From IMG/VR virus record IMGVR_UViG_638341087_000022: a stretch of 43,322 nt of DNA; one strand, 5' to 3'. Made by a program: the position numbers and the translations under genes. Source of the stretch: a virus. Taxonomy: Duplodnaviria; Heunggongvirae; Uroviricota; Caudoviricetes. Below are positions 1 to 24,281 of this stretch, one piece after another (the first letter of the stretch is position 1; every line of letters starts with the position of its first letter). The notes under the pieces were generated by a model. That model made no database searches. It saw only the letters and a list, made by a program, of their open reading frames with translations, and was not told the origin of the DNA.

Positions 1-1194
1 ATGATCACCGACACAAAGCTCAGGAAGGCGCTCGGCAAGAAAAGAGATGATATCGAGATTATTTCTGATTCGCACGGGCTCAACGCCAGAATCAGCCAGG
101 CCGGAAAAATATCATTTTTCTATCGGTATCGCTGGGCCGGTAAAGCGGTAAAACTCAATGTTGGTGATTATCCTGCAATGAGTATCACCCAGGCAAGAGA
201 GCGTCGCCAACAATTCAGAAACTGGTTAACTGAGGGACTGGATCCGCGAGAGCAGGTGAAGCTGGATAAGCAGACCCGACAGGAAGCGATGTCCGTTGCC
301 GAAGCGTTCAATTACTGGATTGAAAGGCACTGTATCGCTAACGGGCTAGTTAAAGTCGATTACTATCGCCAGGTGTTTGAGAAACATATCGCCGAACCGA
401 TGAAGAATGTCAAAGTCGATAACACAGCGAAAATGCACTGGATCAACGTCTTCGATTCTATAGAAAGCAGGGTGATGGCTCATTACATGCTTTCGCTGTG
501 CAAACGGGCGTTTAGGTTCTGCGTTAACAGAAGTGTGATCGCCTCAAACCCACTCGAGGGATTACTGCCATCTGATGTCGGGCAAAAGCCTAAAAAGAGA
601 ACTCGCAGGATGGACGATGACGATCTGCGCAAAATCTATCAGTGGTTGAAAAGCCATATGTCGATAGAGTCCGTTTTCCTGGTGAAATTTATTATGCTTA
701 CCGGATGCCGTACGGCTGAGATTCGACTTAGTGAGAGATCATGGTTTCGATTGGATGATAATGAGTGGGTCGTGCCTGCGGGCAGTTATAAAACTCGGGT
801 ACATATTAGAAGGGGACTCTCAGACGCCGCCGTTAACCTGGTCAGAAATCACCTCAAGAAAATAAACACCAATCACCTGGTGACTTCACAACGTAAAATT
901 GATGGCGGGATCAAAGATTCGCCCGTTCATTCACCTGTGGCATCCAATTACGCCCGTTCTATTTGGAATGGAACAGGTATGGCAGAGTGGTCGCTTCATG
1001 ATATGAGGCGGACGATAGCCACAAATCTCTCTGAGTTAGGTTGCCCGCCGCACGTAATTGAAAAGCTGCTCGGGCATCAGATGGTGGGGGTTATGGCGCA
1101 TTACAACCTTCATGACTATATCGATGATCAGAAACACTGGCTCCGCGTTTGGCAGAGCCATCTTGAAGAGATCATCGGAGAGCCCTTCAGTTAA
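1..1194 (+). CDS. int: Tyrosine recombinase / integrase, P4-like family (397 aa)
   Basis: ATG at window position 1; N-terminus resembles P4-type integrases; C-terminal HDMRRT...LGH...Y catalytic region typical of tyrosine recombinases. Reads inward, so the attachment site is expected left of the window. Confidence 0.85.
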
Positions 1195-1388
1195 TTTATC
1201 TTCTTTTTATCCTCCCACTCTTTGATTGACTCAGAGCGCCAGCGGTTAGGGTTGCCGGGCCAGTCAGGGGGTGGGAACGGGCATACGAAGCCCCGAGGCA
1301 TTGTGTCTGCACTTTGCCATGACCAAAGGGTTTTGCGTGAAATTTTGTAGCGACTGGTCAGGTCTGACGTTACCAAAATATCATCCAT
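1191..1388 (-). CDS. xis: Excisionase-like winged-helix protein (Xis/AlpA-like, 65 aa from the internal ATG)
   Basis: ORF track 1191..1433; first ATG at 1388 with GGAGAG RBS; segment [25 protein letters not shown] resembles the lambda Xis DNA-binding region; convergent with int, stop codons overlap. Confidence 0.5.
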
Positions 1389-1429
1389 AGCTCTCTCCAG
1401 TTGCCCGTTCGGGCCATTCAAAATCTTTT

Positions 1430-1672
1430 TCAACCAACCTGCCCGGGCAGGGAGCGGAGACGGCGCATGCCGGTCATCGCTGTGGCCACGTAGCTCGCCT
1501 TTCGGTTCACCACCTCCACCCAGACTTTCACGCCTTCAACCTTCACCGTATAAGTCTCTTTCATCTTGCTTCGCCCATAGTCGCCATATGTTTGCAAGTG
1601 AGCTGCCAGCGCGATGTCGCATGCTTGGCGAGCTAAAGGTGATTGCTTACTTCCTCGATTGATCAGTCGCAT
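1430..1672 (-). CDS. Hypothetical early protein (80 aa)
   Basis: ATG at 1672 preceded by AAGGAG RBS; first gene of the leftward operon after recT; no recognised motif. Confidence 0.45.
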   Translation of the reverse strand: MRLINRGSKQSPLARQACDIALAAHLQTYGDYGRSKMKETYTVKVEGVKVWVEVVNRKASYVATAMTGMRRLRSLPGQVG

Positions 1673-1710
1673 ATAATCTCCTTGAGGGAGGGTTACCCCT
1701 CCCGGTCTCG

Positions 1711-2829
1711 TCAGGCCACGTATTCCGGTTTCATATCCGCCAGGGTGATGCTGAATTGATCGTGCAGTTCATCGCCTAAGTGACGCTTTGAAGATGCAAG
1801 CATGCGCTCGGCTTCAGCGAACCGTTCGGCTGCATGCGGCTCGTCGGGCTGGGGCAGGGATTTAATAGCCTCCTCAACCTTGTTGCGTGCATCCACTAGG
1901 TAATAACGCTTTACGGCTTTGTTTTTCAGCTCGGTGAATAGTGCGGATCCCAGCGTAGCTTTCGCCGTTTCAATGTCGGCACGCAGCGATTTGGCGCTAT
2001 CCACGTCCTGAGCAGATTCGATGCGTTCGCGGAAATCATCGGCAAGAGAGTCGACATTTACCGACGATTCCTGTGCGCTTTGCGTGGTTGTGACGGTGTC
2101 ACCTGAGATATCAGCCAGGCTAACGCGTTGCGGCGTTGGGTTGATCTCTTTTTCTGTGCGCTGTTCAATCTCATCAGGGGTGTACACACCAAGAACAACT
2201 GCAGGGCAATATAGGCGCGCCCAGTATTTGAGTGCCAGATAAGCGATCTGCTGTTTCGGGTTTGATACCCAAAGTGGAGAATTACGTGTGATTACGCTGG
2301 AGAGGAAAACAGGCTCTCCCCAGGTGATATCACTTTCACCGCGAATAACGGCACCTACCCGTACCGACAGTCCTTGTTCATCAGCACTTTCCCAACCGCG
2401 TACCATTTCTTTCTTGTCGTACGTCCCGCCACCTTTCGCAGGCTTTTTAACGGTTATCTCGCGGCTGCTGGCACATTTCGACCAGTCGCCCTCGTACTCA
2501 TAGTGAAAGCGGCCAACGATGGCGTTTGAGCTGGAGATCACCGCATTAACCAGTTGCGCTTCGTATCCCAGGACACCGTTAACCAGGTGCGTCTTTTGCG
2601 CCACGGCGTAAGGGTTCATACCCCACTGCATCGCCTGCATGATGATGGCCATGCAGTCTGCCGGATTGCCGCGGAGGTGCTCAGGCACCGTTACGGCTGC
2701 CTGTGCCATCAACCCGGCGACAGACTGAAGCTGGGTTAAAGCCTGCACGTTGAAAATGGCATTGCTGGCTGAGATCGTGTTTGGAGTCTGCTGTTCAGCG
2801 GTTACGATATTCGTGTTTTCCATCATCAT
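1711..2829 (-). CDS. RecT/Redbeta-family single-strand annealing protein (372 aa)
   Basis: Triple ATG start with AAGGGGA RBS; motif QWGMNPYAVAQK parallels lambda Bet QYGLNPWTKE; lies immediately downstream of the RecE-like gene as in Rac/lambda recombination modules. Confidence 0.7.
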   Translation of the reverse strand: MMMENTNIVTAEQQTPNTISASNAIFNVQALTQLQSVAGLMAQAAVTVPEHLRGNPADCMAIIMQAMQWGMNPYAVAQKTHLVNGVLGYEAQLVNAVISSSNAIVGRFHYEYEGDWSKCASSREITVKKPAKGGGTYDKKEMVRGWESADEQGLSVRVGAVIRGESDITWGEPVFLSSVITRNSPLWVSNPKQQIAYLALKYWARLYCPAVVLGVYTPDEIEQRTEKEINPTPQRVSLADISGDTVTTTQSAQESSVNVDSLADDFRERIESAQDVDSAKSLRADIETAKATLGSALFTELKNKAVKRYYLVDARNKVEEAIKSLPQPDEPHAAERFAEAERMLASSKRHLGDELHDQFSITLADMKPEYVA

Positions 2830-2834
2830 TCCCC

Positions 2835-5800
2835 TTATGCCTGAGTACGCAGCGCTTCAAGGCGGCGCAGGTCGAAGTCGTTCAGTTCGTCGGTGTAGTC
2901 AGCAGTGATTGGCGCTGGCCATTCACCTGTGTCGAATCCGGTTGCGATATTGCGCATCGCTTTGCGGTACTCGAGCATACCCAGCTCCAGTAGTTCAGCG
3001 GATGCCTCGATGATGGCGATCCAGTGGTAGTTCTCGTCTTTGTTGACGAAAATCCAGAAGAACTGATCCAGCGCTGCGGTTTCGCAGTACATAGCCGCGC
3101 TCAGGTGATAATCACGTTCAATAATTTCCCGGTGTAGCCTGGCGCGCAGGCTTTCCTGCTTAACATTCCACATGCTGATGGTTTTCAGGTCTGCACCTAT
3201 ACGCACGCCATCCAGGTCGATCTCAAGGTCAGGGCGCACACGAACTTCCAAGCCCGTCTCCTCGTCAAAACCAAAGTAGCTCACCTCAACGGCTCGGCTA
3301 GGGTGGGTCAGCAGCATGCCGGCGGTCGGGTGTGCCAGAAGCGCTTTTTGAATATTCAGCGCGGTGCTCAGCTGCTGGCGGGTGACCAGCACTTTTCCTT
3401 CCGGGTTATCGCGCCAGGCATCCAGCAGTTCGTCGGCAAATACGGCATCTGGTTTGACTGCCTTCACGGCCTGGATCATGTCTGCTTTGGTACCGGACAC
3501 TTTCAGTGGTGCCGGTTTCTGTGCTTCCTGAGCCACAAGGTCAGGGTTGATGATTGCCAACTGCTCCAGCAGCGCGTCACGGCTGCCGCTGGTTTTAACC
3601 GGCGGCGGCAGGGTGGCGTTGTACTCTTTAATGCATGCCTTCATTGCCGTCGCCGTCTGCTTCTGGTCACCATCAATACGCTGGAAGTCAGCTGGCAGCG
3701 CCATATAGGTCTGTGCCGTTTCTTCCAGGTTAGCGCCAAGCGGAACCTGCGGCGGCAGGGTGGCGTTGTACTCTTCCAGTAACACCTTGATGTCGTCGGC
3801 AGACAGCAGCGCCGGCAGGCTGGCATTGTGCTCATCGATAAAGGCGCGCAGGGTCGCGGCCGTTGTGAATGCGCCTTCAGGGATCACCGGTTCAACGCTG
3901 AATTCTGCGTCCAGTAGTTCAGGCTGCAACGCCAGCGCATGCACCAAGTTGCCCATGTCCAGCACCGCTGAGCGCTCTTTGACGATGGTTTTCTCTACGT
4001 GGCGCGCATTGAAGTACATCAGCGAAACGCGCGCATCTTTCACCTGGGTTGAGCTGATGCCGTTGGCGGCGTGGTAAACCTCGTTTGGCAGCCCTTCATA
4101 GCGGCCTGGCTCGAAATAAGCGGGATAAACAACAGCTGGTTCGTCAGATTGCGCTTCTGGCTCGGTTTGTGCTGCAACTGGTTCGGTTTGGCTTACAGAA
4201 TCGCTATTTTTGGCGACAGAATCCGTATTCTGGTTTACATCGTCCTTCTGGCTGGTATCTGACTCTTCACCAGACTCCAGACTGCTTTCGCCTGGCTGTA
4301 CTTCATCACCAGCTTGTTTTTCATCACTGACAGTTTCTTGAACCTGCACATTGCTGGTGGTCTCCGTAGCCTTTTTCGTGCCATGAGTTGCTGAGTTCTG
4401 CAGCAAAGCCGTAACGTCGAATATTCCGTTGCCGACATTTTTAACCAGTTCTTGTTCGACTTTCTGCGGTTGTGCTGCCGCTTCCTCTGCGCGGCGGCGT
4501 GCTCCTTCTTCACGCACGCGTTGCAGGTTCTCTTCGTGAGTGCAGAAGGATTTGCGCGGAGACTCCTTACCTTCAGGTTGGGGAATTTCCTGTGCTGCGG
4601 GTTCAGCCTCATGCAACGGCAATAACTCGACCGCGGAATTGAACGCGGCTGTCATGGTCTGGTTAACAAATTCCAGGTGAGCGACAGGAGTTAAATGAAT
4701 ATTTTCCGGTGCGATACGTACCAGGTTAAAAATAGCCGTGCGGTTAACACCCAGAACGCCTGGCTGATTGCGCAGGATGTTGCTCCATGATTTCCATGGT
4801 TCTTCTTTTTTGGTCACGATTTCTTTAGCGCGACGAAGAATGCTGCCCGGGATCTCGAAGTGGTTGAAGTCCATAGGCAGAAGGGCACACGCAATCTCTA
4901 AATCGAGAGTGTCCAGTGTGTGGTGTGCGTCAGGTCCACGGTCAGTGACGTAACCGCCGTCGGCATTAGTGCCGGAATCAGTACGCTGCACACTACTGAT
5001 GCGATTACCGGCGGCCCATTCGCGAACGAGGATACCGCGGTCGATGTGATCTGTAGCGAACCACAATTTCAAAAACTGGATTAAGGTTGCGAGTTCAGGG
5101 ATTTTTCCATCGACAGGGAAGACTTTCTTAACGGCATTCACGACTTTATGAATATCGTGCTCAATGGCTTTTTTGAATGCTTCCACATTCTCAGCTGCCA
5201 GCAGCAGGTTCTGGACGTACGCGTCATCGGTGTCCATCTCAAGGAGGACAATCTCATTTTTCTGCCCTGCGTCGATGTGATAGAGATATTCACCATCACC
5301 GATGAACTGAGCCAGTACGCGCTGGCGGAATGGCAGGGTGGCAACAACGATCAGGTTCGGTTGCTGTGTCTGCTGGGATTGCTCTTCGGTATCGACTTCA
5401 CCATCAACGACGCCACCTTCTGCCCGGCCGTTCTCGTCGGTCTGGATACCGTCCTCAACAGTGAGATCTTGACCCGTTGTAACGTCAGCAGCGTTGCTGG
5501 TTTCAGTTTTGAGCAACTGCAACTTACCACTGCGCCAGTCTTCTACCAGTTGATTGCGGTCACCGGCATCGGTGTTCACCCAGTCAGACATGAATGCAGC
5601 GATCAATCTTGGTTCGTGCTCTTCGTCTGGTGTGAAAATGTCCTTAACCGCCCGAATCATTTTCCACTCAGCATTCAGGCTGAGTTTGGCGGTCGCGGGC
5701 ACATCGTTCCTTGCCACAAGCAGGCTATGGAGATATGTATTGCCTTCATCCAGTGACATTTCGCTGGCAGCCAACTGCTGCTCTTTAGTGACGTGGGTTT

Positions 5801-6224
5801 GGTATTTATCGTTCATCAGATGGACGGCAAAGCGGACCGCTGGAGTACGGTTTTCAACCGGGACAATTTCGGACGCAGTCGCATCTTCAACGATTACGGT
5901 CGGAGTAGGTGTGTAGGGGGCGTAAACGGAACCAGTAGACACACCAGCGGCTTTTGGCAGCCAGGTGCGCCCATCGTCCTGAAGCTCGTAGCGATCACAC
6001 CAGGTAAAATCAACTTCACCTTCTTTCGGCAGGCCGTCGACAACTGGGAAATCAGTGCGAATCGGTTTGGCGTAGTCCTTACCCCGACCTGTTTCGATAC
6101 CTGCATCTTCCAGCGCAACATCCAGCATCAGATTGGCGCGAGCCTCGGTTTTAGCAGTGAACCAGACCACTGCATCTTGCTTTCCGGATTTCTGAGTGGC
6201 TTTAACCACATTAAAGAATTCCAT
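2835..6224 (-). CDS. recE: RecE-like exodeoxyribonuclease VIII (1129 aa) with internal repeats
   Basis: Very long ORF; C-terminal region resembles the RecE nuclease domain; paired with the annealing-protein gene; contains three EYNA(T/S)LPP-type repeat units. Confidence 0.7.
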   Translation of the reverse strand: MEFFNVVKATQKSGKQDAVVWFTAKTEARANLMLDVALEDAGIETGRGKDYAKPIRTDFPVVDGLPKEGEVDFTWCDRYELQDDGRTWLPKAAGVSTGSVYAPYTPTPTVIVEDATASEIVPVENRTPAVRFAVHLMNDKYQTHVTKEQQLAASEMSLDEGNTYLHSLLVARNDVPATAKLSLNAEWKMIRAVKDIFTPDEEHEPRLIAAFMSDWVNTDAGDRNQLVEDWRSGKLQLLKTETSNAADVTTGQDLTVEDGIQTDENGRAEGGVVDGEVDTEEQSQQTQQPNLIVVATLPFRQRVLAQFIGDGEYLYHIDAGQKNEIVLLEMDTDDAYVQNLLLAAENVEAFKKAIEHDIHKVVNAVKKVFPVDGKIPELATLIQFLKLWFATDHIDRGILVREWAAGNRISSVQRTDSGTNADGGYVTDRGPDAHHTLDTLDLEIACALLPMDFNHFEIPGSILRRAKEIVTKKEEPWKSWSNILRNQPGVLGVNRTAIFNLVRIAPENIHLTPVAHLEFVNQTMTAAFNSAVELLPLHEAEPAAQEIPQPEGKESPRKSFCTHEENLQRVREEGARRRAEEAAAQPQKVEQELVKNVGNGIFDVTALLQNSATHGTKKATETTSNVQVQETVSDEKQAGDEVQPGESSLESGEESDTSQKDDVNQNTDSVAKNSDSVSQTEPVAAQTEPEAQSDEPAVVYPAYFEPGRYEGLPNEVYHAANGISSTQVKDARVSLMYFNARHVEKTIVKERSAVLDMGNLVHALALQPELLDAEFSVEPVIPEGAFTTAATLRAFIDEHNASLPALLSADDIKVLLEEYNATLPPQVPLGANLEETAQTYMALPADFQRIDGDQKQTATAMKACIKEYNATLPPPVKTSGSRDALLEQLAIINPDLVAQEAQKPAPLKVSGTKADMIQAVKAVKPDAVFADELLDAWRDNPEGKVLVTRQQLSTALNIQKALLAHPTAGMLLTHPSRAVEVSYFGFDEETGLEVRVRPDLEIDLDGVRIGADLKTISMWNVKQESLRARLHREIIERDYHLSAAMYCETAALDQFFWIFVNKDENYHWIAIIEASAELLELGMLEYRKAMRNIATGFDTGEWPAPITADYTDELNDFDLRRLEALRTQA

Positions 6225-6363
6225 GTGAGATCCTCATTTTTGGGTGTTAGAATCCCCGGACCATTGATAGCGCCCATTGGGTTAACTTTGGTTTTAATGT
6301 TGTTTCCGGTGTAACTTTGGTCGGTACCACCGGACGTAGATCCCGCCTTGCGCGGGTTTTACG

Positions 6364-6525
6364 TTAGCCTTCGTGAGCCATCTGGTCGTGCGAAGCGCAA
6401 CGTTTGGAGCAATACTCTTTTTCTTTGCGCGCCAGCTGTGAGCCGTTGCGATAGAGAAGGGTGCTCTTGATTACTTCCTCCGTTTTAACCGGCTTGCCGC
6501 AATATCCGCATTTCTTGTCTAACAT
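6364..6525 (-). CDS. Small C4 zinc-ribbon protein (53 aa), not in the ORF track
   Basis: ATG at 6525 with GGAGGA RBS; CGYCG...C..RC cysteine pairs; sits in the position of Rac ydaE between recE and the kil-position gene. Confidence 0.4.
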   Translation of the reverse strand: MLDKKCGYCGKPVKTEEVIKSTLLYRNGSQLARKEKEYCSKRCASHDQMAHEG

Positions 6526-6536
6526 GACATCCTCCG

Positions 6537-6743
6537 CTAGTGGCTGAGTCCATGCCCCAGACCGTTCAGATAAACTTCAACCAGCAAATCCTTGGTGTAA
6601 GTCATTTCTACGCCGCGATGCAGATACAAACGTCCGCGAGCGTTAGCTGATGCCGTCCAGGTTGAGTCTTTGTGTTTGACGAGCATCCCCGGCTGAACTG
6701 CGCCGCGGTTTACTGTCTGTGTACCGTAGTGCTGATGAACCAT
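6537..6743 (-). CDS. Small early-left protein (68 aa), KilR-position
   Basis: Track ORF 6537..6887 begins with TTG; the only ATG is at 6743 and has a GGAG RBS; function not recognisable. Confidence 0.35.
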   Translation of the reverse strand: MVHQHYGTQTVNRGAVQPGMLVKHKDSTWTASANARGRLYLHRGVEMTYTKDLLVEVYLNGLGHGLSH

Positions 6744-6989
6744 GATGTTCTCCAGTTTTTCTGAGTGAACTTCGCTGGTGGTGCCGCGGCGCTGATCTTC
6801 ACGGTTGAGCGTTTTAACTCTGCAATTCACCACCGCGAAGCTCACTCTGTGCTTTGCCCTTGTCGCCAGGCTGGCGGAACGTTTCAAACCTACTGCGCGT
6901 TAATCTCACCACCTCATTCCGGTCTTCGTATGCCCCGGACAGCTTCTTCGTGGGCGTCCTGCTTTGGTGGTTGTGTTGATGGAGTAATT

Positions 6990-7030
6990 AAACACAATGT
7001 TTATTTACGCGTCAACATAATGAGTGTTTT
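6990..7030. promoter_or_regulatory. OL-like operator cluster
   Basis: Motifs AAACACAATGTTTA and CAACATAATG repeat the half-sites found in the cI-cro intergenic region. Confidence 0.35.
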
Positions 7031-7127
7031 TATATAAACAAAAAGTTTAGTTGGTTGCGCTCGTTGGCACGAGTAGTATGTTTTGTGGTCTATTTTGTGG
7101 TTATAAAAAAATCGATGAGGGTGAGTT

Positions 7128-7334
7128 ATGGATCGTGACGAACTGGAAGAAGACCGCGCAGCGTTTATTGCGGGGGAGATTGGTGGCGCAGTTGTCAGTC
7201 TGATAGCTAACGGGATTGTGATCAGCCGCGATGCGATTGTGGATAGTCTAGAGGCTAAGCGCAGGGTAGTGGGAAACGTCATTCACAAGTGGGTATTGCG
7301 GGATGCGGCTGCTATGGTGAGAAAAGGGCAATAA
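7128..7334 (+). CDS. Hypothetical small protein (68 aa)
   Basis: ATG with GAGGGTGAG RBS; ends just before a perfect hairpin terminator; opposite orientation to both flanking operons. Confidence 0.4.
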   Translation: MDRDELEEDRAAFIAGEIGGAVVSLIANGIVISRDAIVDSLEAKRRVVGNVIHKWVLRDAAAMVRKGQ

Positions 7335-7336
7335 AA

Positions 7337-7358
7337 AACCCAGTTCGGTAACTGGGTT
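7337..7358. terminator. Bidirectional intrinsic terminator
   Basis: AACCCAGTT-CGGT-AACTGGGTT, 9-bp perfect stem, flanked by an A-run upstream and a T-rich tract downstream. Confidence 0.55.
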
Positions 7359-7364
7359 ATTGCT

Positions 7365-7790
7365 TTATTCAACAGATGATGGGGGGGTCGGTGCTTTCTT
7401 AAAGATCGACCACTGAGAAATGTAGGTCAGCAACCTTGAGCTTAACTCGAGTTCTTTTTGTAATATTTCGTCATAACGTTTTTTTGCTGCTTGCATGGTC
7501 GCATCACTAGCGTGATTGTCATCCATAATGATCTTTAGCCTTTTCTTTTCTCGGCTTGAGCATATTGTAAATAACAGACCTGTAAATGACATTCCACCAA
7601 AATCCTTTAACGTTTTGATTACAAAAAGAAGAATCAAAGACAGAAAAGGAACAGATCTGTAGGCCCAATCACGAAACTCACCGTCAGGAAAGAAGATAGG
7701 AATAGCATCTGTAGCATAACCACATATGAGGGAGACAATTAGAAAAGGTAGTCCATTTTTAGCTACATTTTTAACGTTATCGTTAGCCAT
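7365..7790 (-). CDS. Membrane protein (141 aa), possible SieB-type exclusion protein
   Basis: ATG at 7790 overlaps the stop of the upstream gene by 8 nt; about three hydrophobic segments in the N-terminal half, charged helical C-terminus; AT-rich. Confidence 0.5.
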   Translation of the reverse strand: MANDNVKNVAKNGLPFLIVSLICGYATDAIPIFFPDGEFRDWAYRSVPFLSLILLFVIKTLKDFGGMSFTGLLFTICSSREKKRLKIIMDDNHASDATMQAAKKRYDEILQKELELSSRLLTYISQWSIFKKAPTPPSSVE

Positions 7791-8166
7791 GATTTTTTCC
7801 CGAGAACGATTTCGAGTCAACATGTAACTTTTGTGTTTTGACTACATAATACGCAAATCCAATCTTAACTAACCAATAAGCTACTGGTATGAGTGCTGCG
7901 TAAAGAGGGATATAGTACATAACCTTACCTCCTGTTAACCACACTATAACACCTAGCATCACTATTAGCGCGACAGAAAATGCTTTCAGCCCAACACAGC
8001 TATCAGGATGTGAAACACTGTTCCTTAGCAACAATATCCTGGATTCATCAAGTGTGTAAGGAATATCGCCAACATGATTTTCGATTTTTGGGAAGGTCTC
8101 AAATACTTCAACCCGATCAATCGAAATAATTGAGCTTGATTGATGATCTAAGCAAACTGCAGCCAC
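7783..8166 (-). CDS. Membrane protein (127 aa; 2 predicted TM helices)
   Basis: GTG start at 8166 with GAGAGGGA RBS, 2 nt after the stop of the upstream gene; C-terminal hydrophobic helices AFSVALIVMLGVIVWL and YYIPLYAALIPVAYWLV. Confidence 0.45.
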   Translation of the reverse strand: MAAVCLDHQSSSIISIDRVEVFETFPKIENHVGDIPYTLDESRILLLRNSVSHPDSCVGLKAFSVALIVMLGVIVWLTGGKVMYYIPLYAALIPVAYWLVKIGFAYYVVKTQKLHVDSKSFSGKNHG

Positions 8167-8168
8167 TG

Positions 8169-8492
8169 TTATCCCTCTCGAACCTTTAGTGATACTCGGT
8201 TAGCAGCAAATGTGGCAATGAAACCACATTCTACACATATAACAGGGAATGCCCATATACCTCGGCCAGCTGAATGAGGTAGAGGAAGGGTAATTATTGC
8301 AGGATAGTCTTGACTATCTTCTCGTGGAGGAACTCCCCAAAGCGTATGCTTACAAAGCGGACAGGCCATCTCGCCATGTTTTTCTTCGAGGCGTTGAAAA
8401 TAATCTCGAAATTCTTGTCTTGATATTGATAGCGTCAATGCTGTTGTATTGACACTTTCCTGACTTTTTTCTTCTTCAACCTGTTCGCCCAT
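8169..8492 (-). CDS. Zn-ribbon protein (107 aa)
   Basis: ATG at 8492; CPLC...CVEC cysteine pairs; first gene after cI, separated from it by a hairpin. Confidence 0.45.
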   Translation of the reverse strand: MGEQVEEEKSQESVNTTALTLSISRQEFRDYFQRLEEKHGEMACPLCKHTLWGVPPREDSQDYPAIITLPLPHSAGRGIWAFPVICVECGFIATFAANRVSLKVREG

Positions 8493-8603
8493 CTCAGCTC
8501 TCAATATAATGATAATTAACTGGTAAGTGAATTTTGCATATCGTTAAGATGTATCCCATTGGTACAGAAACATCTGAGGGGTAAGTAGCTTTTAACTACC
8601 GTG

Positions 8604-8999
8604 CTACTCACCATCCCCCTTAATCCGCCGTCCCATGTACTTGGCGTACAGTTCATCGAGTTCTTTCAACCGTAGAGATACGATCCGCAACATGTTCTGT
8701 TGTTCTTCTTCGTTTGGGAGTTGATTATAGAGTTCCAACAGTCTCCGTTCGTCGTGTCTCAAACCGTCCTTAGCATCCACGTCCTGACCTAGAACCCACT
8801 CAAGACTTACGCCTAGCGCATCGGCAAGTTTTATTGCTGAGCTTTTTCCTATCGCTCCTCTGACAAACCAGTTGTTGACTGATTGTGCGCTCACACCACA
8901 GATTCTCGCTATATCCGCTTTGGATATGCGCTTCTTCTCGATGATTTCATTTAACCGCCGAACCTGCGGGTTATCTGTTTGGTGTGTGTTTTTTCTCAT
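8604..8999 (-). CDS. CI-type repressor, HTH (XRE family), no S24 peptidase domain (131 aa)
   Basis: HTH segment ISKADIARICGVSAQSVNNW; divergent from a Cro-like gene across an operator-bearing intergenic region; too short for a LexA-like autocleavage domain. Confidence 0.7.
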   Translation of the reverse strand: MRKNTHQTDNPQVRRLNEIIEKKRISKADIARICGVSAQSVNNWFVRGAIGKSSAIKLADALGVSLEWVLGQDVDAKDGLRHDERRLLELYNQLPNEEEQQNMLRIVSLRLKELDELYAKYMGRRIKGDGE

Positions 9000-9031
9000 A
9001 TATCAAGATTCTAAACTAAAAGTTTATCGCC

Positions 9032-20710: not shown

Positions 20711-20765
20711 TTGTCAACTTTATGAGCAAACTGATCTTAATTACTGTAACTAGGTGGTCAATGAT

Positions 20766-21407
20766 ATGGCAACGCTTAAGGACCTTTCCAGTCAGTTAAG
20801 ACAGCTGCAGAAGCAAATACCGTTTGCGACTGCCCAGGCTATGACTAAAGTGGTTCGCCAGATAGAAGCGGCCCAAAAAACAGCATTTGAGCGGAATCTG
20901 GATAATCCAACACCTTTTACAGTTAAATCGGTTGGGTCAGTTGGTGCCAGGAAAAACAGCCTTCGTGCGAAGGTGTTTGTTCGTGATACTGCTGCTGGTT
21001 ACCTTGAACCCTTCGAGTTCGGCGGAGAGCACAAGCTTAATGGTAGTGCTTTGCTTAACCCGAAAGACATAAAGCTTAATAAATACGGCAACCTGCCGCG
21101 TAATAAGCTCTCTCAGCTCAAAGCAAAGCCAAACGTATTTATTGGTGACGTGGGTGGCGTGAATGCCGTGTGGCAGAGAAAAAAGCCGAAAACCAAAAAA
21201 GGGAAGAAACGGGCAAAACGTTCTCCGAACGGCACGCGCAGAGACAAGATTAAGCAACCTGCACCAAAATTGCTCATTCGGTTTGGAGACGCGCTTCCAG
21301 TCAAACCAACGCTCGGCTATATGGACAGGGCAAACACCATGGCCAACGCATTGTTACCCTCAGCGCTGCACCAGGCGATTGCTGAGGCGATCAGCTCGGC
21401 CAGATAG
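20766..21407 (+). CDS. Hypothetical protein with a Lys/Arg-rich patch (213 aa)
   Basis: ATG at 20766 with AGGTGG RBS; basic segment KKPKTKKGKKRAKR; last gene before the cos repeats. Confidence 0.5.
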   Translation: MATLKDLSSQLRQLQKQIPFATAQAMTKVVRQIEAAQKTAFERNLDNPTPFTVKSVGSVGARKNSLRAKVFVRDTAAGYLEPFEFGGEHKLNGSALLNPKDIKLNKYGNLPRNKLSQLKAKPNVFIGDVGGVNAVWQRKKPKTKKGKKRAKRSPNGTRRDKIKQPAPKLLIRFGDALPVKPTLGYMDRANTMANALLPSALHQAIAEAISSAR

Positions 21408-21498
21408 CCCCCCCAGGGGTTTTGGGTCCTTCCTGAGCCTTTTGTAAGGCACGGGCATTGCGCGCCGCGGTGTTTTCCTAGCTACAACTTTCAGATTT

Positions 21499-21647
21499 GT
21501 GTCCCATGTCCCACCTCTGGCGATCATTACGGACACCTCGCCAGCTCTGGCTATTCCAGTTTATTCCAGTGGGACATTCTGGTGGGACATGGCAAAAATG
21601 TCCCAGGCGAATGTCCCACCCCAGAAAATGTCCCAGGTGATGTCCCA
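21499..21647. promoter_or_regulatory. cos region: cluster of ATGTCCCA repeats (candidate terminase small-subunit binding sites)
   Basis: Eight copies of ATGTCCCA / TGGGACAT in both orientations in about 150 bp, ending at the start codon of the Nu1-like gene. Confidence 0.5.
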
Positions 21648-22216
21648 TGACCACGATGAACCAGAGTCAGTACGCACAACATTCAGGTGTGGATCGCAAA
21701 ACAATTGGCCGGTGGATTAAAGCCGGGCGCTTCATTGTGATGGACGGAGACCTGATTGACGTAGAGGCCAGCGATGCGGCATTGAAGAAAAACCGCGATG
21801 GCAAAGACCCGCGCGCCTCGAACGCGAAGAAAAAGAAAACTCCCGTCGTTAGCGATAACGATGATGACGGTGATGAAATCAATAAAACTGTCCGCCAGAT
21901 AATGCTCACTGAAGGGGCAGATCTTTCGAGAGAGGAAGCGGGACGTATCCGCGAGAATTACATGGCCCTGCAGGCAAAGCTGCAGTATGAAAAAGACAGC
22001 GGCCAGCTTATTGAGCTGACAGCAGCCGAGGAGGTTTTATTCAACGCCTTTCGCCAACAGCGTGATGCCTGGCTTAACTGGCCGTCCAGGGTGGCGCCGC
22101 TAATGGCTGCTGATCTGGATGTACCGGCGGACAGGATGACAGAGGTGCTGATTGAACATGTCCACAAACACATCTCAGTCCTCGGAGAGCCAGAGTTTAA
22201 CCCGGCAGAAGATTGA
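21647..22216 (+). CDS. Terminase small subunit, Nu1-like (189 aa)
   Basis: N-terminal HTH YAQHSGVDRKTIGRWIKAG; immediately upstream of and overlapping the large terminase gene. Confidence 0.65.
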   Translation: MTTMNQSQYAQHSGVDRKTIGRWIKAGRFIVMDGDLIDVEASDAALKKNRDGKDPRASNAKKKKTPVVSDNDDDGDEINKTVRQIMLTEGADLSREEAGRIRENYMALQAKLQYEKDSGQLIELTAAEEVLFNAFRQQRDAWLNWPSRVAPLMAADLDVPADRMTEVLIEHVHKHISVLGEPEFNPAED

Positions 22217-24281
22217 GCGTCTTGAATTAAGCGTCCGCAAAGGCTGGACACCCCCGCCGCGTATCAGTGTGCCGCAGTGGGCAGATGACTATCGTAAGCT
22301 GGCAAAAGAGGCTGGGAGCACTTCGGGAAACTGGGAAACATCGACGGTAGAAATTGCCCGCGGACCGATGCTTGCCGCGACGGAGTCCGGGGTTCATATC
22401 ATCACTGTAATGTGCTGTACCCAGTTGATGAAGACAGCACTGCTGGAAAACCTTTTTGGCTATTTTGCCCACCTCGATCCTTGTCCGATACTGCTGCTGC
22501 AGCCGAAAGAAGAAGCCGCTGAACAGTTTTCGAAAGAGCGTATTAGCCCGCTGGTAAGGGTGACGCCGGTACTGCGTAAAATCATCGGTGATTCGAAACA
22601 GAAAAGCTCGAAAGAAACCATTCTTTACAAGGCATTCACTGGCGGATTTCTGGCGCTGGCGGGTGCTGGTAGCCCTGATAACCTTGCGCGTCGTCCGATT
22701 CGTGTCCTGCTGGCGGATGAAGTGGACAAGTACCCGATAACCCGCGAAGGCGATCCAATTGCGCTGGCCGAAGAGCGTACAGCGACATTTGGCCTGACCT
22801 GGCTGTCTGTACGCGCCTGTTCGCCGACGGTGGAGGATGAGAGCCGCATTGCTGACAGCTACGCCGACTCCGATCAGCGCCGGGCATCTGTGGTTTGCCC
22901 GCACTGTGGCCACCGCCAGTTCCCCGACTTTTTCAAACACGTTCAGTGGCCGAAAGAGGGAGATAAACACCTGACTAAATCGGCGATGCTCTATTGCGAA
23001 TGCTGTGGTAGTGGCTGGTCCGAAGGACAGCGCCTCAGAGCTCTGCACACTATTCGATGGCATCAGACGCGCCCATTTGAGTGCTGCGGGGAGCGGCACT
23101 CACCGCTGATGGATTATGACCTTGCCTGGCGGGCGGCAGACGAGGGCAGCGTTGAAAAGGTCTGGCAATGGTCAGAGTCGGAACGGCATGCGGTCTATCG
23201 CGCAATCTGCCCCTCCTGTGGAAAGGAGGCAGTCGATAACCACCACGCGGGGTACCAGGCATCCAAGCTTTTCAGCCCCTGGCAAAAAGATAAGCCGTCG
23301 GATATTGCGAAAAAATATATCGATGCGAAGGGCGATCCGGATAAGGAACAGGCGTGGTGGAATACCCAGATGGGGCTTCCGCACCGACCTAATCATGGGA
23401 AACAGCTCCCTGTTGATGTTCTGCTGGCGCGCCGGGAAATATTTCCGGCCGTCGTTCCGGACGGGGTGGCATTGTTAACAGCTGGAGTTGATACCCAGGA
23501 CGATCGCTTCGAAATTACGATCACCGGCTGGGGGAGAGATGAAGAATCGTGGTCGGTCGCGCATGACGTTATTTATGGTGACCTTGAGACGGAAGAACCC
23601 TGGAAGCGACTGGATGCATACCTGAAACAGATCTGGCGACGTGGTGACGGGCGCGGCCTGAATATCATGGCAACGTGCATGGACTCCGGCGGCCACCATA
23701 CGCAGAAGGTATACGAATTCGCCAAAGAGCGTCTTGGCCGTCGTGTCTGGGCAATTAAGGGGGAGTCTGCACAGGGAGGCAAACGCAATCCTGTCTGGCC
23801 GACCAAACGACCATCATCGAAAAGCAAAGCCAGTTTCCGCCCTGTCATTCTGGGGGTTAACTCAGCGAAAGACGTGATACGCGGTCGCCTGCATCTTGAG
23901 CCACCCAAACCTGGCGCCGCCGCTGCGGGTTATATGCATTTTCCTGACGATCGCGATCTCGGGTACTTCAATCAGCTGCTGGCGGAGCGACTGGTTTACA
24001 AAGTCATTTCCGGGCAGCGGTACAGTATCTGGGAAGCAATACCAGGACGAGCTAACGAAGCGCTTGACTGCCTCGTTTACAGCTATGCCGCGCTGTGCGG
24101 TCTCAAACATATGGGGTTAAAACTCAACGTCCGGGCCGCCAACCTCGAAGCCGATCCGGATAAGTTCCTGCCAGCGCCAGTTGGACAGGAAGAAAAAATC
24201 AATTACGAGCTGCCGGGTGCGGTTATTGAAGAACCAGCGCCGGTCAAACGTAAGCGAATATCGCAACTCCTGCCGAAATAA
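22158..24281 (+). CDS. Terminase large subunit, lambda gpA family
   Basis: Zn-finger-like CPHCGHRQF region and overall colinearity with lambda A; start taken at the first ATG (22158), overlapping the Nu1-like gene. Confidence 0.8.
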   Translation: MSTNTSQSSESQSLTRQKIERLELSVRKGWTPPPRISVPQWADDYRKLAKEAGSTSGNWETSTVEIARGPMLAATESGVHIITVMCCTQLMKTALLENLFGYFAHLDPCPILLLQPKEEAAEQFSKERISPLVRVTPVLRKIIGDSKQKSSKETILYKAFTGGFLALAGAGSPDNLARRPIRVLLADEVDKYPITREGDPIALAEERTATFGLTWLSVRACSPTVEDESRIADSYADSDQRRASVVCPHCGHRQFPDFFKHVQWPKEGDKHLTKSAMLYCECCGSGWSEGQRLRALHTIRWHQTRPFECCGERHSPLMDYDLAWRAADEGSVEKVWQWSESERHAVYRAICPSCGKEAVDNHHAGYQASKLFSPWQKDKPSDIAKKYIDAKGDPDKEQAWWNTQMGLPHRPNHGKQLPVDVLLARREIFPAVVPDGVALLTAGVDTQDDRFEITITGWGRDEESWSVAHDVIYGDLETEEPWKRLDAYLKQIWRRGDGRGLNIMATCMDSGGHHTQKVYEFAKERLGRRVWAIKGESAQGGKRNPVWPTKRPSSKSKASFRPVILGVNSAKDVIRGRLHLEPPKPGAAAAGYMHFPDDRDLGYFNQLLAERLVYKVISGQRYSIWEAIPGRANEALDCLVYSYAALCGLKHMGLKLNVRAANLEADPDKFLPAPVGQEEKINYELPGAVIEEPAPVKRKRISQLLPK

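What the first reader, a model, noticed from the sequence alone, without database searches (positions are those of the whole stretch)
21408..21660. cos region with eight ATGTCCCA repeats in front of the small terminase gene
Seen: eight copies of ATGTCCCA / TGGGACAT in both orientations within 21499-21647, the last overlapping the Nu1-like start codon, preceded by a GC-rich partial palindrome (GCGCGCCGCGG, about 21458-21470). Established: lambda cosB carries Nu1 binding sites immediately upstream of Nu1. Inference: these repeats are terminase-binding sites and the cohesive-end nick site lies just upstream; the repeat number is high compared with the three R sites of lambda.
Basis: partly seen in the sequence, partly recalled or inferred. 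Interest (0 to 1): 0.45.

Follow-up and report, generated by a model that had tools for sequence, protein, structure and literature searches.

The report
Phage cos site with eight-heptamer cosB
This is the DNA-packaging start site (cos) of an E. coli prophage. It is built like phage lambda's, except that the small terminase appears to recognise an array of eight 7-bp repeats that changes together with the protein's DNA-binding domain in related phages.

Summary
TGTCCCA occurs eight times in 21500-21647 (six on +, two on -). Seven copies carry the 5' A, and the last shares its A with the TerS start codon.

The region is a complete lambda-type cos:
- cosQ-like GGGTCCT at 21424-21430.
- cosN at 21455-21466 (GCATTGCGCGCC), identical with its flanks to the 12-nt 5' cohesive end mapped on virion DNA of Serratia phage BZS1.
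- A conserved spacer.
- A cosB of eight heptamers laid out 2 direct, 2 inverted, 4 direct.

It lies directly upstream of a phrog_57 small terminase and a gpA-family large terminase.

Across 143 related loci with the same cosN, the heptamer type follows only the TerS N-terminal winged-helix domain. Fifty-two loci carry TGTCCCA with a YA.H..V[DN]RKT..RW.K helix. At least 27 carry GGTAACA with FA.LH.VSRKT.T.WK.RGW. Natural recombinants with 89-91% identical TerL but a swapped N-domain carry the other heptamer.

Two corrections apply. TerS is not a Pfam Nu1 member. The GC-rich motif is part of the cohesive end itself.

This is a new variant of a known kind, of moderate interest.

The parts
21424..21430 (+). 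cosQ-like heptamer GGGTCCT, inside the conserved block TGGGTCCTTCC. Its first base lies 31 nt before the top-strand nick.
   Evidence: TGGGTCC is invariant in 48 distinct related cos regions. The same 7-mer sits 30 nt before the nick at lambda's right end. That this 7-mer is lambda cosQ is from my own knowledge (Wieczorek & Feiss 2001). PMC4669245 says only that cosQ is 7 bp and highly conserved.
21455..21466 (+). cosN: predicted 12-nt 5' cohesive-end sequence GCATTGCGCGCC. Nicks are predicted between 21454/21455 (top strand) and 21466/21467 (bottom strand).
   Evidence: The sequence is identical to the annotated cosL of Serratia phage BZS1. The BZS1 record ends ...AAAGCACGG and starts GCATTGCGCGCCGCG, matching window 21446-21469. 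The BZS1 ends were determined by PhageTerm on virion reads and by sequencing phage ends against prophage PCR product (PMC7556043). CGGGCATTGCGCGCCG is conserved from Enterobacterales to Achromobacter.
21467..21499 (+). Spacer between cosN and cosB (position of lambda I2), with conserved GCGGTGTTTTCC, AGCTA (21480-21484) and ATTTG (21495-21499).
   Evidence: AGCT and TTTG are invariant across 48 distinct relatives. Lambda has CGCGGGTTTTCGCTA at the same place. IHF-like matches on the - strand occur at bp 31-43 in several relatives, but the window has no match within the <=1-mismatch limit of the scan.
21500..21513 (+). cosB proximal doublet: two abutting heptamers TGTCCCA-TGTCCCA (bp 46-59 counted from the cohesive end). 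This is the position of lambda R3.
   Evidence: The doublet is conserved in position in all relatives of both specificity classes. R3-lambda is at bp 50-65 and R3-N15 at bp 48-60 (PMC9026076).
21514..21569 (.). Variable 56-bp spacer (position of lambda I1). It contains the imperfect inverted repeat TGGCGA...TCGCCA and the direct repeat TATTCCAGT x2 (21552-21570).
   Evidence: D11, D3. The sequence is not conserved between sub-lineages. No IHF consensus was found at <=1 mismatch.
21570..21589 (-). Two inverted heptamers (TGGGACA on the + strand) at 21570-21576 and 21583-21589, 13 bp apart.
   Evidence: (I1). The inverted orientation is conserved in the commonest layout >><<>>>> (19 of 44 distinct regions).
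21599..21647 (+). Four direct heptamers at 21599, 21612, 21629 and 21641 (spacings 13, 17, 12). The last ends on the A of the TerS ATG. A Shine-Dalgarno-like AGGTGA lies at 21635-21640.
   Evidence: The start-proximal copy is absent in at least five of the distinct relatives aligned (L089, L103, L130, L144, L161), so overlap with the start codon is not obligatory.
21647..22216 (+). Small terminase TerS (189 aa). It has an N-terminal winged helix-turn-helix domain (aa 1-48), a disordered linker (aa 50-75) and a helical C-terminal half.
   Evidence: phrog_57 'terminase small subunit', E 4.6e-36. No Pfam family matches. AlphaFold model. The best fold matches of the N-domain are BldC, Pukovnik Xis and lambda gpNu1 DBD 1J9I, at weak E values of 0.5-0.7. 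RefSeq annotates it as a hypothetical protein.
22152..24281 (+). Large terminase TerL, lambda gpA type. It overlaps the end of TerS; the RefSeq start corresponds to 22158.
   Evidence: GpA_ATPase 2.8e-64 and GpA_nuclease 2.2e-78. phrog_15. RefSeq annotation.

Best explanation
Window 21424-21650 is the complete cos site of a temperate myovirus prophage that packages DNA the lambda way. The parts, in order:
- A cosQ-like GGGTCCT.
- A cosN that the gpA-type TerL nicks with a 12-nt stagger, leaving the 5' overhang GCATTGCGCGCC.
- A conserved spacer.
- A 148-bp cosB made of eight copies of (R)TGTCCCA: a doublet at bp 46-59, then two inverted and four direct copies at bp 116-193.

The heptamers are the recognition sites of the winged helix-turn-helix domain at the N-terminus of the TerS encoded immediately downstream.

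Proposed sequence of events: several TerS DNA-binding domains occupy the array. This anchors TerL at cosN for accurate nicking. The terminase stays on the cosB-bearing end, and packaging proceeds rightwards into terS/terL. Termination at the next cos uses cosQ and cosN.

Shown here:
- The anatomy.
- The identity of cosN to a mapped cohesive end.
- Conservation of the layout.
- Covariation of the heptamer with the TerS N-domain.

Inferred, not shown:
- That this prophage's own virion ends are at 21455/21466.
- That TerS physically binds the heptamers.
- The stoichiometry.
For: (a) The cluster is far above chance.

(b) Gene context: lysis genes, cos, TerS (phrog_57), gpA TerL, gpW, lambda portal.

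(c) CACGG|GCATTGCGCGCC|GCG is identical to the junction of the mapped ends of phage BZS1.

(d) GGGTCCT lies 31 nt before the nick, against 30 nt in lambda. GCGGnGTTTTC follows the overhang as in lambda. The first site is at bp 46-59, against R3 at bp 50-65. The ATG is at bp 193, against 191.

(e) In 48 distinct relatives the heptamers persist in place while the spacers diverge beyond alignment. Within the closest subset, conservation is 0.93 in the heptamers against 0.86 in the spacers, p = 2e-4.

(f) Covariation:
- 52 loci with TGTCCCA x5-9 all have the TerS motif YA.H..V[DN]RKT[IV].RW.K (20 distinct sequences).
- 27 loci with GGTAACA all have FA.LH.VSRKT.T.WK.RGW (18 distinct sequences).
- The class-specific residues (R22, I/V24, K25, A26, D/N16) fall on the helix that aligns with the lambda Nu1 recognition helix, residues 17-24.

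(g) Natural domain swaps:
- L011/L012 have TerL 89-91% and TerS C-half 83% identical to the window, but an N-domain only 47% identical, and they carry GGTAACA.
- L007/L009/L010 have TerL 76-77% but an N-domain 65-70% identical, and they carry TGTCCCA.
- BZS1 has a C-half only 26% identical, yet carries a G-class N-domain and GGTAACA.
- Nucleotide identity to L012 collapses only over 21554-21953.

(h) The conserved upstream gene does not track the class. Both classes occur in the same host genera, Raoultella and Citrobacter. This argues against a host factor or the upstream protein as the binding partner.

(i) Both classes share R.GT..CA, with a purine at -1 in 97-98% of sites. That is what is expected of homologous domains reading related sites.
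Against: - There are no biochemical or virion-end data for this prophage or any TGTCCCA-class phage. None is in the phage isolate collection.
- TerL is only 53% identical to BZS1 TerL, so identical nick positions are inferred from identical DNA, not shown.
- TerS has no significant sequence match to Nu1: Pfam finds none, and hhalign gives probability 6.9%.
- Fold matches are weak (E about 0.5, model pTM 0.26).
- No IHF site lies between the doublet and the inverted pair, so the lambda-style hairpin model cannot simply be transferred.
- The loci were collected by seeding on cosN or on TerS, and many are close relatives. The 52-versus-27 split therefore counts lineages, not independent events. 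The independent support comes from the few recombinant cases.
Confidence: 0.8

Rival explanations
1. The heptamers are operator sites for a transcription factor, or for TerS acting only as an autoregulator. They would control late or terminase gene expression rather than packaging.
For: The last copy overlaps the TerS start codon and the one before it abuts the Shine-Dalgarno-like AGGTGA. The N-domain fold class (MerR/Xis/BldC-like) also includes transcription factors that bind direct-repeat arrays.
Against: No sigma-70-like promoter or terminator was found in 21100-21800. The region lies inside a Q-antiterminated late operon. The protein that co-varies is the one fused to a TerL-linked C-domain. 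The proximal doublet sits at the fixed distance from cosN that is critical for lambda R3. The start-proximal copy is missing in at least five of the distinct relatives aligned. A regulatory side-effect of TerS binding is not excluded.
Confidence: 0.07
2. The inverted copies matter as an RNA hairpin in the late mRNA leader that tunes TerS translation. The DNA repeats would be a by-product.
For: RNA 21545-21665 folds into a long hairpin formed by copies 3-6: -43.3 kcal/mol, z = -2.7, with 2 of 200 shuffles folding as well.
Against: Any inverted pair of protein sites gives such a hairpin. Four of the eight copies (1, 2, 7, 8) lie outside it. In BZS1-type relatives only one inverted copy exists, far from the others, and the array lies inside the coding region. 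No Rfam family matches. The sequence switch between classes changes all copies at once, paired and unpaired alike.
Confidence: 0.04
3. The repeats bind a host nucleoid protein, or are replication iterons unrelated to terminase.
For: Arrays of short direct repeats spaced 12-13 bp apart resemble iterons.
Against: Both heptamer classes occur in prophages of the same host genera. The replication genes are 10 kb away in the early region. The array is always glued to cosN and terS, and changes with the TerS N-domain only.
Confidence: 0.03

Closest known systems
Phage lambda cos (cosQ - cosN - I2 - cosB with R3, I1, R2, R1) with gpNu1/gpA terminase
   Same: - The order of subsites is the same.
- The 7-mer GGGTCCT lies about 30 nt before the nick.
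- The cohesive end is a 12-nt 5' overhang.
- GCGGnGTTTTC follows the overhang.
- The first TerS site is at bp 46-59, against bp 50-65 in lambda.
- One block of sites is inverted relative to the others.
- The TerS ATG is at bp 193, against 191.
- TerL is of the gpA family.
- TerS has an N-terminal winged-helix DBD and a C-terminal TerL-linked half.
(PMC4669245; PMC9026076)
   Different: - The overhang sequence differs: GCATTGCGCGCC against GGGCGGCGACCT, 5 of 12 identical.
- There are eight 7-8-bp sites instead of three 16-bp R sequences.
- There is no IHF consensus at the I1 position.
- TerS is not a sequence member of the Nu1 family.
- The virion has a contractile tail, not a lambda-type siphovirus tail.
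Packaging-specificity classes of lambda-like phages (lambda, 21, N15/Monarch)
   Same: cosQ and cosN are shared, while cosB and the TerS recognition helix differ between classes. The specificity determinants lie in the N-terminal DBD. The cassettes are exchanged by recombination (PMC4669245). Here the TGTCCCA and GGTAACA classes share cosN, and the TerS C-half and TerL are up to 83-91% identical between classes.
   Different: Here the two classes read sites that are visibly related (R.GT..CA). The class switch is seen across dozens of natural prophages but has no genetic test.
Serratia phage vB_SspM_BZS1 (MT843275) and Citrobacter phage phiNP
   Same: The cosQ-like block and the 12-nt cohesive end are identical. 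Both have the proximal heptamer doublet at bp 48-61, the conserved phrog_1924 gene before cos, a gpA TerL, and the myovirus architecture.
   Different: - The heptamer is GGTAACA.
- TerS starts at bp 75.
- The distal array (six copies in BZS1) lies inside the TerS linker-coding region.
- The TerS C-half is only 26% identical and TerL 39-53%.
- The BZS1 paper maps the ends but, in the passages searched, does not mention the repeats.
BldC / MerR-Xis-type winged-helix proteins on direct-repeat arrays
   Same: These are the best fold matches of the TerS N-domain. That BldC multimerises head-to-tail on variable numbers of direct repeats is from my own knowledge of the entries 6AMA/6AMK, not tested here.
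   Different: BldC is a transcription factor with no terminase link. The matches are statistically weak (E 0.5-1).

Membership tests
lambda-type cos site (cosQ-cosN-cosB served by a gpA terminase) | gpA-family large terminase encoded next to the site | tested here: met
   PF05876 2.8e-64 and PF20454 2.2e-78 for 22152-24281
lambda-type cos site (cosQ-cosN-cosB served by a gpA terminase) | Staggered nicks giving 12-nt 5' cohesive ends in virion DNA | not testable with these tools
   Only indirect evidence: the 12-mer and 5+3 flanking bases are identical to the ends mapped in phage BZS1.
lambda-type cos site (cosQ-cosN-cosB served by a gpA terminase) | Conserved 7-bp cosQ about 30 bp upstream of the nick | tested here: met
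   GGGTCCT at 21424-21430, 31 nt before the nick. The same 7-mer lies 30 nt before lambda's right end. It is invariant in relatives. That the 7-mer functions as cosQ is from my own knowledge.
lambda-type cos site (cosQ-cosN-cosB served by a gpA terminase) | Repeated TerS sites between cosN and terS, the first at about bp 48-65, one block inverted | tested here: met
   Sites at bp 46-59 (>>), 116-135 (<<) and 145-193 (>>>>). Positions of R3 from PMC9026076.
lambda-type cos site (cosQ-cosN-cosB served by a gpA terminase) | IHF site (I1) between R3 and R2 | tested here: not met
   No WATCAANNNNTTR match with <=1 mismatch in bp 1-240 of the window's cos
'lambda-like phages' in the sense of Feiss et al. 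[quoted passage not shown] | Cohesive-end sequence close to GGGCGGCGACCT | tested here: not met
   GCATTGCGCGCC against GGGCGGCGACCT: 5 of 12 positions identical. Definition in PMC4669245.
Nu1 small-terminase family (Pfam Phage_Nu1) | Significant sequence match to the family profile | tested here: not met
   No Pfam hit at E<=0.01. At E<=10 only HTH_28 and HTH_17, both below cut-off. hhalign against lambda Nu1: 58 columns, 28% identity, probability 6.9%.
Nu1 small-terminase family (Pfam Phage_Nu1) | N-terminal winged helix-turn-helix DBD of the MerR/Xis type | tested here: inconclusive
   The model shows beta-alpha-alpha-beta-beta-alpha in residues 1-48, pLDDT 76-81. 1J9I (gpNu1 DBD) ranks 5th: rmsd 2.6 A over 50 columns, but E 0.7.
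phrog_57 terminase small subunit | Profile match over the full length | tested here: met
   E 4.6e-36, residues 1-188
BZS1-type cos (cohesive end GCATTGCGCGCC) | Same cosN and cosQ-like block | tested here: met
BZS1-type cos (cohesive end GCATTGCGCGCC) | Same cosB heptamer and TerS DBD class | tested here: not met
   BZS1 has GGTAACA and FAKLHGVSRKTVTSWKARGW. The window has TGTCCCA and YAQHSGVDRKTIGRWIKAG.

The most novel reading that the evidence does not exclude
The heptamer array may be more than a set of redundant anchors. It could be a template that assembles a defined TerS oligomer, for example four dimers (eight DBDs, one per site), around about 150 bp of DNA without IHF.

Together with the DBD-coding segment it would form a portable 'specificity cassette', roughly 21500-21950, that recombination swaps between phages sharing cosN and TerL.

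In the sister lineage (BZS1/phiNP) the same array has become part of the TerS gene itself: the binding sites encode the GNK/GNR linker. There the protein's recognition sites and its own coding sequence are the same DNA.
Probability: 0.3. Interest if true: 0.6.

Novelty: new variant of a known kind. Interest (0 to 1): 0.45.

Why it matters
- **A second cosB design.** Lambda's cosB is the textbook case of how a virus recognises its own DNA, and it rests on three 16-bp sites plus IHF. This family offers a second, widespread design on the same cosQ-cosN chassis. It occurs in about 1% of complete E. coli genomes and in many Enterobacterales, and the same cosN occurs in Achromobacter prophages. It uses many short sites, has no obvious IHF site, and shows at least two clearly related specificities.
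- **Direct testability.** The natural swaps name the residues (R22, I/V24, K25, A26, D/N16) and the bases (positions 1, 4 and 5 of the heptamer) that should set specificity.
- **Practical uses.** The TerS gene is annotated as 'hypothetical protein' with no Pfam family. The exact cos coordinates allow correct linearisation of these prophage genomes and the design of cos-plasmid or transduction tools.

Tried and rejected
- **Phage isolate collection.** Megablast of 21000-22300 found no match. tblastn of TerS found only hits at <=41% identity. So no cultured phage of the TGTCCCA class can be cited.
- **Protein annotation of TerS.** Pfam and PDB sequence search (only spurious RecA and ATPase hits) gave no annotation.
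- **IHF.** A consensus scan found nothing in the window's cos at <=1 mismatch. Some relatives have a match between cosN and the doublet, which is too weak to build on.
- **Promoters and terminators.** None in 21100-21800.
- **Rfam.** Only a chance miRNA-model hit on the hairpin, E 0.17.
- **Contig ends as evidence for physical ends.** Some fetched loci end within 2-4 nt of cosN (L047, L105). These are ends of the stored stretch, not contig ends, so the idea was dropped.
- **First alignment of the two repeat types.** I first aligned them by their reverse complements (TGTCCCA against TGTTACC, 'TGT' core). The in-register comparison at the proximal doublet shows the correct pairing is TGTCCCA against GGTAACA.
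- **BZS1 as a 'simple' three-site cosB.** I first read BZS1/phiNP as analogous to N15. One search shows six more sites inside the TerS gene of BZS1 and four in phiNP, so that reading was withdrawn.
- **Literature.** Searches for the overhang, for phiNP and for heptamer or cosB repeats found no description of this array. An exact-string search of the library is not proof that none exists.
Full report
**1. The observation**

The window carries seven exact copies of ATGTCCCA/TGGGACAT, all between 21506 and 21647. Shuffles of the whole 43-kb window give 1.44 +/- 1.31, and none of 100 reaches 7. An eighth copy at 21499-21506 reads GTGTCCCA, so the common unit is the heptamer TGTCCCA. Eight of the window's eleven copies lie in 21500-21647.

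| Site | Coordinates | Strand | bp from cohesive end |
|---|---|---|---|
| 1 | 21500-21506 | + | 46-52 |
| 2 | 21507-21513 | + | 53-59 |
| 3 | 21570-21576 | - | 116-122 |
| 4 | 21583-21589 | - | 129-135 |
| 5 | 21599-21605 | + | 145-151 |
| 6 | 21612-21618 | + | 158-164 |
| 7 | 21629-21635 | + | 175-181 |
| 8 | 21641-21647 | + | 187-193 |

The last copy ends on the A of the ATG at 21647, which opens a 189-aa ORF. AGGTGA lies 6 nt upstream of that ATG. GCGCGCCGCGG is at 21460-21470.

**2. Context**

The window is an E. coli prophage. It is 100% identical over 21000-22300 to strain NCTC9040, and matches occur in 60 of 5426 complete genomes.

Genes downstream of the repeats:
- The 189-aa ORF is phrog_57 'terminase small subunit', E 4.6e-36.
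- A gpA-type large terminase, gpW and a lambda-family portal follow.
- Then come head genes and a contractile tail.

Upstream lie an antiterminator Q gene, the lysis genes, a DUF2513 gene and a phrog_1924 gene that ends at 21407. The repeats therefore fill the only sizeable non-coding gap (21408-21646) at the exact place where lambda has cos.

**3. Where the cohesive end is**

A low-stringency search of the phage collection with 21415-21500 hit position 1-38 of Serratia phage vB_SspM_BZS1, annotated 'cosL; left cohesive end'.
- The BZS1 record starts GCATTGCGCGCC GCGTTCTG and ends ...TTTTGTAAAGCACGG.
- The window reads TTTTGTAAGGCACGG GCATTGCGCGCC GCGGTGTT at 21440-21474.
- The BZS1 authors found 5' cohesive ends with the overhang GCATTGCGCGCC. 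They used PhageTerm on virion reads and confirmed it by comparing phage ends with a prophage PCR product (PMC7556043).

By identity of the 12-mer and its flanks, cosN of this prophage is 21455-21466. This is an inference by homology: the two TerL proteins are only 53% identical.

**4. The rest of cos resembles lambda**

| Feature | Window | Lambda |
|---|---|---|
| Sequence at the right (cosQ-side) end | GGGTCCT... (31 nt to the nick) | ...ACGGGTCCTTTCCGGTGATCCGACAGGTTACG |
| Left end, starting with the overhang | GCATTGCGCGCC GCGGTGTTTTCCTAGCTA | GGGCGGCGACCT CGCGGGTTTTCGCTA |
| GGGTCCT start to nick | 31 nt | 30 nt |
| First TerS site | heptamer doublet, bp 46-59 | R3, bp 50-65 (R3-N15: bp 48-60) |
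| TerS ATG | bp 193 | Nu1, bp 191 |

Lambda sequences are; R3 and ATG positions are from PMC9026076. By my recollection of Wieczorek & Feiss (2001), GGGTCCT is lambda cosQ. PMC4669245 states only that cosQ is 7 bp and highly conserved.

The overhang itself is different, with 5 of 12 positions identical. By the Feiss definition this is therefore not a 'lambda-like' cohesive end.

**5. Related loci**

I collected 42 loci encoding TerS relatives from reference genomes and 120 IMG/VR stretches containing GGGCATTGCGCGCCG. A 15-mer in a collection of that size has chance hits, so I used only those followed by a TerS-like ORF.

In 48 distinct cos regions of the TGTCCCA type, these elements are invariant or nearly so: TGGGTCC, CGGGCATTGCGCGCCG, AGCT, and TTTG followed by the doublet. 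The spacers differ so much between sub-lineages that they cannot be aligned, yet the heptamers persist at corresponding places.
- The commonest layout is >><<>>>>, in 19 of 44 distinct regions. Copy number ranges from 5 to 9.
- Within the closest, ungapped subset, conservation is 0.93 in heptamers against 0.86 in spacers, p = 2e-4.

**6. Covariation with TerS**

Relatives with about 55-60% identical TerS (Raoultella scottii, Edwardsiella, Providencia, Xenorhabdus), together with BZS1 and phiNP, carry the same cosQ and cosN. At the same positions and in the same orientations they carry GGTAACA instead of TGTCCCA. Achromobacter prophages share cosN and carry TGTTCGC, with the first copies at bp 45 and 56.

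Over all loci with the exact cosN:
- 52 loci have TGTCCCA, and every one has YA.H..V[DN]RKT[IV].RW[IVLM]K in TerS (20 distinct sequences).
- 27 loci have GGTAACA, and every one has FA.LH.VSRKT.T.WK.RGW (18 distinct sequences).

Both site classes share a purine at -1 and the pattern R.GT..CA. They differ at heptamer positions 1, 4 and 5.

The residues that separate the classes are D/N16 against S, R22 against T/M/S/K, I/V24 against K, K25 against A/S/E, and A26 against R. They lie on the segment that hhalign places against lambda Nu1 residues 16-25. The Nu1 recognition helix is residues 17-24 (PMC9026076).

**7. Natural domain swaps**

Identity to the window, by region:

| Locus | TerL | TerS C-half | TerS N-domain | Heptamer |
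|---|---|---|---|---|
| L011/L012 | 89-91% | 83% | 47-48% | GGTAACA |
| L007/L009/L010 | 76-77% | 78-79% | 65-70% | TGTCCCA |
| BZS1 | 53% | 26% | 51% (same class as L011-L015) | GGTAACA |

- A sliding comparison with L012 shows 62-78% nucleotide identity before cos, 34-54% over 21554-21953, and 74-95% from 21954 on.
- The phrog_1924 gene before cos is 70-98% identical everywhere and does not follow the class. phiNP is 83% and L012 80% identical, both G class. L007/L009/L010 are 70-73% identical, T class.
- Both classes occur in Raoultella and in Citrobacter.

The heptamer therefore follows the TerS N-terminal domain and nothing else that I could test. This is the main argument that the heptamers are TerS sites.

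**8. The TerS protein**

- No Pfam family matches. At E<=10 only generic HTH models appear, below their cut-offs.
- PDB sequence search gives nothing relevant.
- RefSeq and most sources call it a hypothetical protein.
- An AlphaFold model built from 39 homologues (mean pLDDT 67, pTM 0.26) gives a beta-alpha-alpha-beta-beta-alpha domain in residues 1-48 (pLDDT 76-81), a disordered linker at 50-75, and a helical C-half.
- Foldseek finds no hit at E<=0.001. The top hits all cover the N-domain and are MerR/Xis-type winged helices: BldC, Pukovnik Xis, the lambda gpNu1 DBD (1J9I, rmsd 2.6 A over 50 columns, 24% identity, E 0.7), and the phage-80/Rpp entries.

So TerS works like Nu1 in position and probably in fold, but it fails the sequence test for membership of the Nu1 family.

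**9. Rival readings**

- **Promoter with operators.** This is unlikely. No promoter or terminator consensus was found, and the site lies inside the Q-dependent late operon.
- **RNA hairpin.** The RNA hairpin formed by copies 3-6 is real in silico (z = -2.7). But it is the automatic consequence of inverted sites, leaves four copies unexplained, and is not preserved in BZS1-type relatives. Rfam has nothing.
- **Host factor or replication iterons.** These do not fit the class switch within the same host genera.
- **Side-effect of TerS binding.** TerS bound at the start-proximal copies may also hinder read-through or expression. This is not excluded, but that copy is missing in at least five of the distinct relatives aligned.

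**10. How it probably works**

- **Shown:** the anatomy and the covariation.
- **Inferred from lambda** (PMC4669245, PMC9026076): TerS DBDs occupy the heptamers. The doublet, at a fixed distance from cosN, positions TerL for the two nicks. The complex stays on the cosB end and docks on the portal. Packaging runs rightwards, and the next cosQ-cosN ends it.

What differs from lambda is the way the DNA is organised. No IHF consensus lies between the doublet and the inverted pair, and there are eight short sites spaced 12-17 bp apart instead of three long ones. A reasonable guess is that the array wraps around, or is coated by, a TerS oligomer. Eight sites would fit four TerS dimers, but the stoichiometry is speculation.

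**11. An unexpected relative**

In BZS1 and phiNP the TerS ATG is only 75 nt from the left end, and only three heptamers precede it. I first took this for a 'simple' cosB like that of N15.

The missing copies are in fact inside the TerS gene. In BZS1 they lie at bp 218 (inverted) and at bp 246, 258, 270, 285 and 297, which is codons 48-77. There they are read as TVT and as GNK/GNR repeats of the linker. phiNP has four such copies.

In that lineage the DBD-coding segment sits between the proximal doublet and the distal array, and the sites double as coding sequence. This recalls rR2 inside N15 gene 1 (PMC4669245).

**12. Novelty and verdict**

The cos principle, the subsite order and specificity classes are textbook lambda biology. 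The cohesive end of this family was mapped in 2020 for one member.

I found no description in the searchable literature of the following:
- The heptamer-array cosB.
- Its two or more related specificities.
- The swappable cosB-plus-DBD cassette.

No isolate of the TGTCCCA class is in the phage collection. I rate the finding as a new variant of a known kind: well supported by comparison, unproven by experiment, and of moderate interest.

Noticed in passing
L163 (Serratia phage BZS1) bp 218-303; L165 (phiNP) equivalent: After the three pre-ATG copies, BZS1 has six more GGTAACA copies inside the TerS gene (phiNP has four). One BZS1 copy is inverted. They encode TVT and GNK/GNR repeats of the linker between the DNA-binding and C-terminal domains, so binding-site array and coding sequence coincide.
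   Followed up: partly
window 20754-21407: A phrog_1924 'minor tail protein' homologue ends 16 nt before the cosQ-like GGGTCCT. Among L001-L015, BZS1 and phiNP, it is found upstream of cos in every locus that reaches far enough upstream. It is 70-98% identical (BZS1 72%, phiNP 83%), far better conserved than TerS or TerL between the same phages. The BZS1 authors also remarked on its conserved position. Its role is unknown. A link to the cosQ side of packaging or to the last-packaged DNA end is conceivable.
   Followed up: partly
window 21514-21569: The spacer between the heptamer doublet and the inverted pair contains its own repeats. TATTCCAGT occurs twice, 10 bp apart (21552-21570), and is conserved as TTATTCC x2 in close relatives. 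There is also an imperfect inverted repeat TGGCGA...TCGCCA. The L007/L010 sub-lineage has instead a perfect palindrome GTGCATA-TT-TATGCAC at this place. These may be sites for a bending protein that replaces IHF.
   Followed up: no
window 21647-22216; L166 20648-21217: The small terminase is annotated 'hypothetical protein' by RefSeq/PGAP and by nearly all sources, and no Pfam family covers it. Only PHROGs (phrog_57) recognises it.
   Followed up: yes
L004 (NZ_JBQPOM010000071.1, 'Vagococcus sp. WN89Y'): A 226-kb contig labelled as a Vagococcus (Firmicutes) assembly carries this enterobacterial prophage module, with TerS 89% and TerL 87% identical to the window. The assembly is probably mislabelled or contaminated.
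   Followed up: no
L032, L034 (Achromobacter) about 315 nt upstream of TerS: The same cosN (ACGCGGGCATTGCGCGCCGCG) is found in Burkholderiales prophages. There it comes with a third repeat type (TGTTCGC, at least 6 exact copies plus degenerate ones over about 235 bp) and a different TerS helix (SIREFARRE..SDTLVRRA). The chassis is therefore much wider than Enterobacterales.
   Followed up: partly
window 1-9000 against L166 1-8000: The late region of the window is identical to the NCTC9040 prophage, but the early region differs. The window has a 1129-aa ORF on the minus strand at 2835-6224 that is absent from the NCTC9040 annotation. The prophage is therefore a mosaic with a different early arm.
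   Followed up: no
E. coli genome hits H33-H38: In six E. coli genomes the 1301-bp query matches at 93% identity but spans 1863 bp in two pieces, with one extra annotated gene. An insertion of about 560 bp lies somewhere between the phrog_1924 gene and terL. Its exact position relative to cos was not checked.
   Followed up: no
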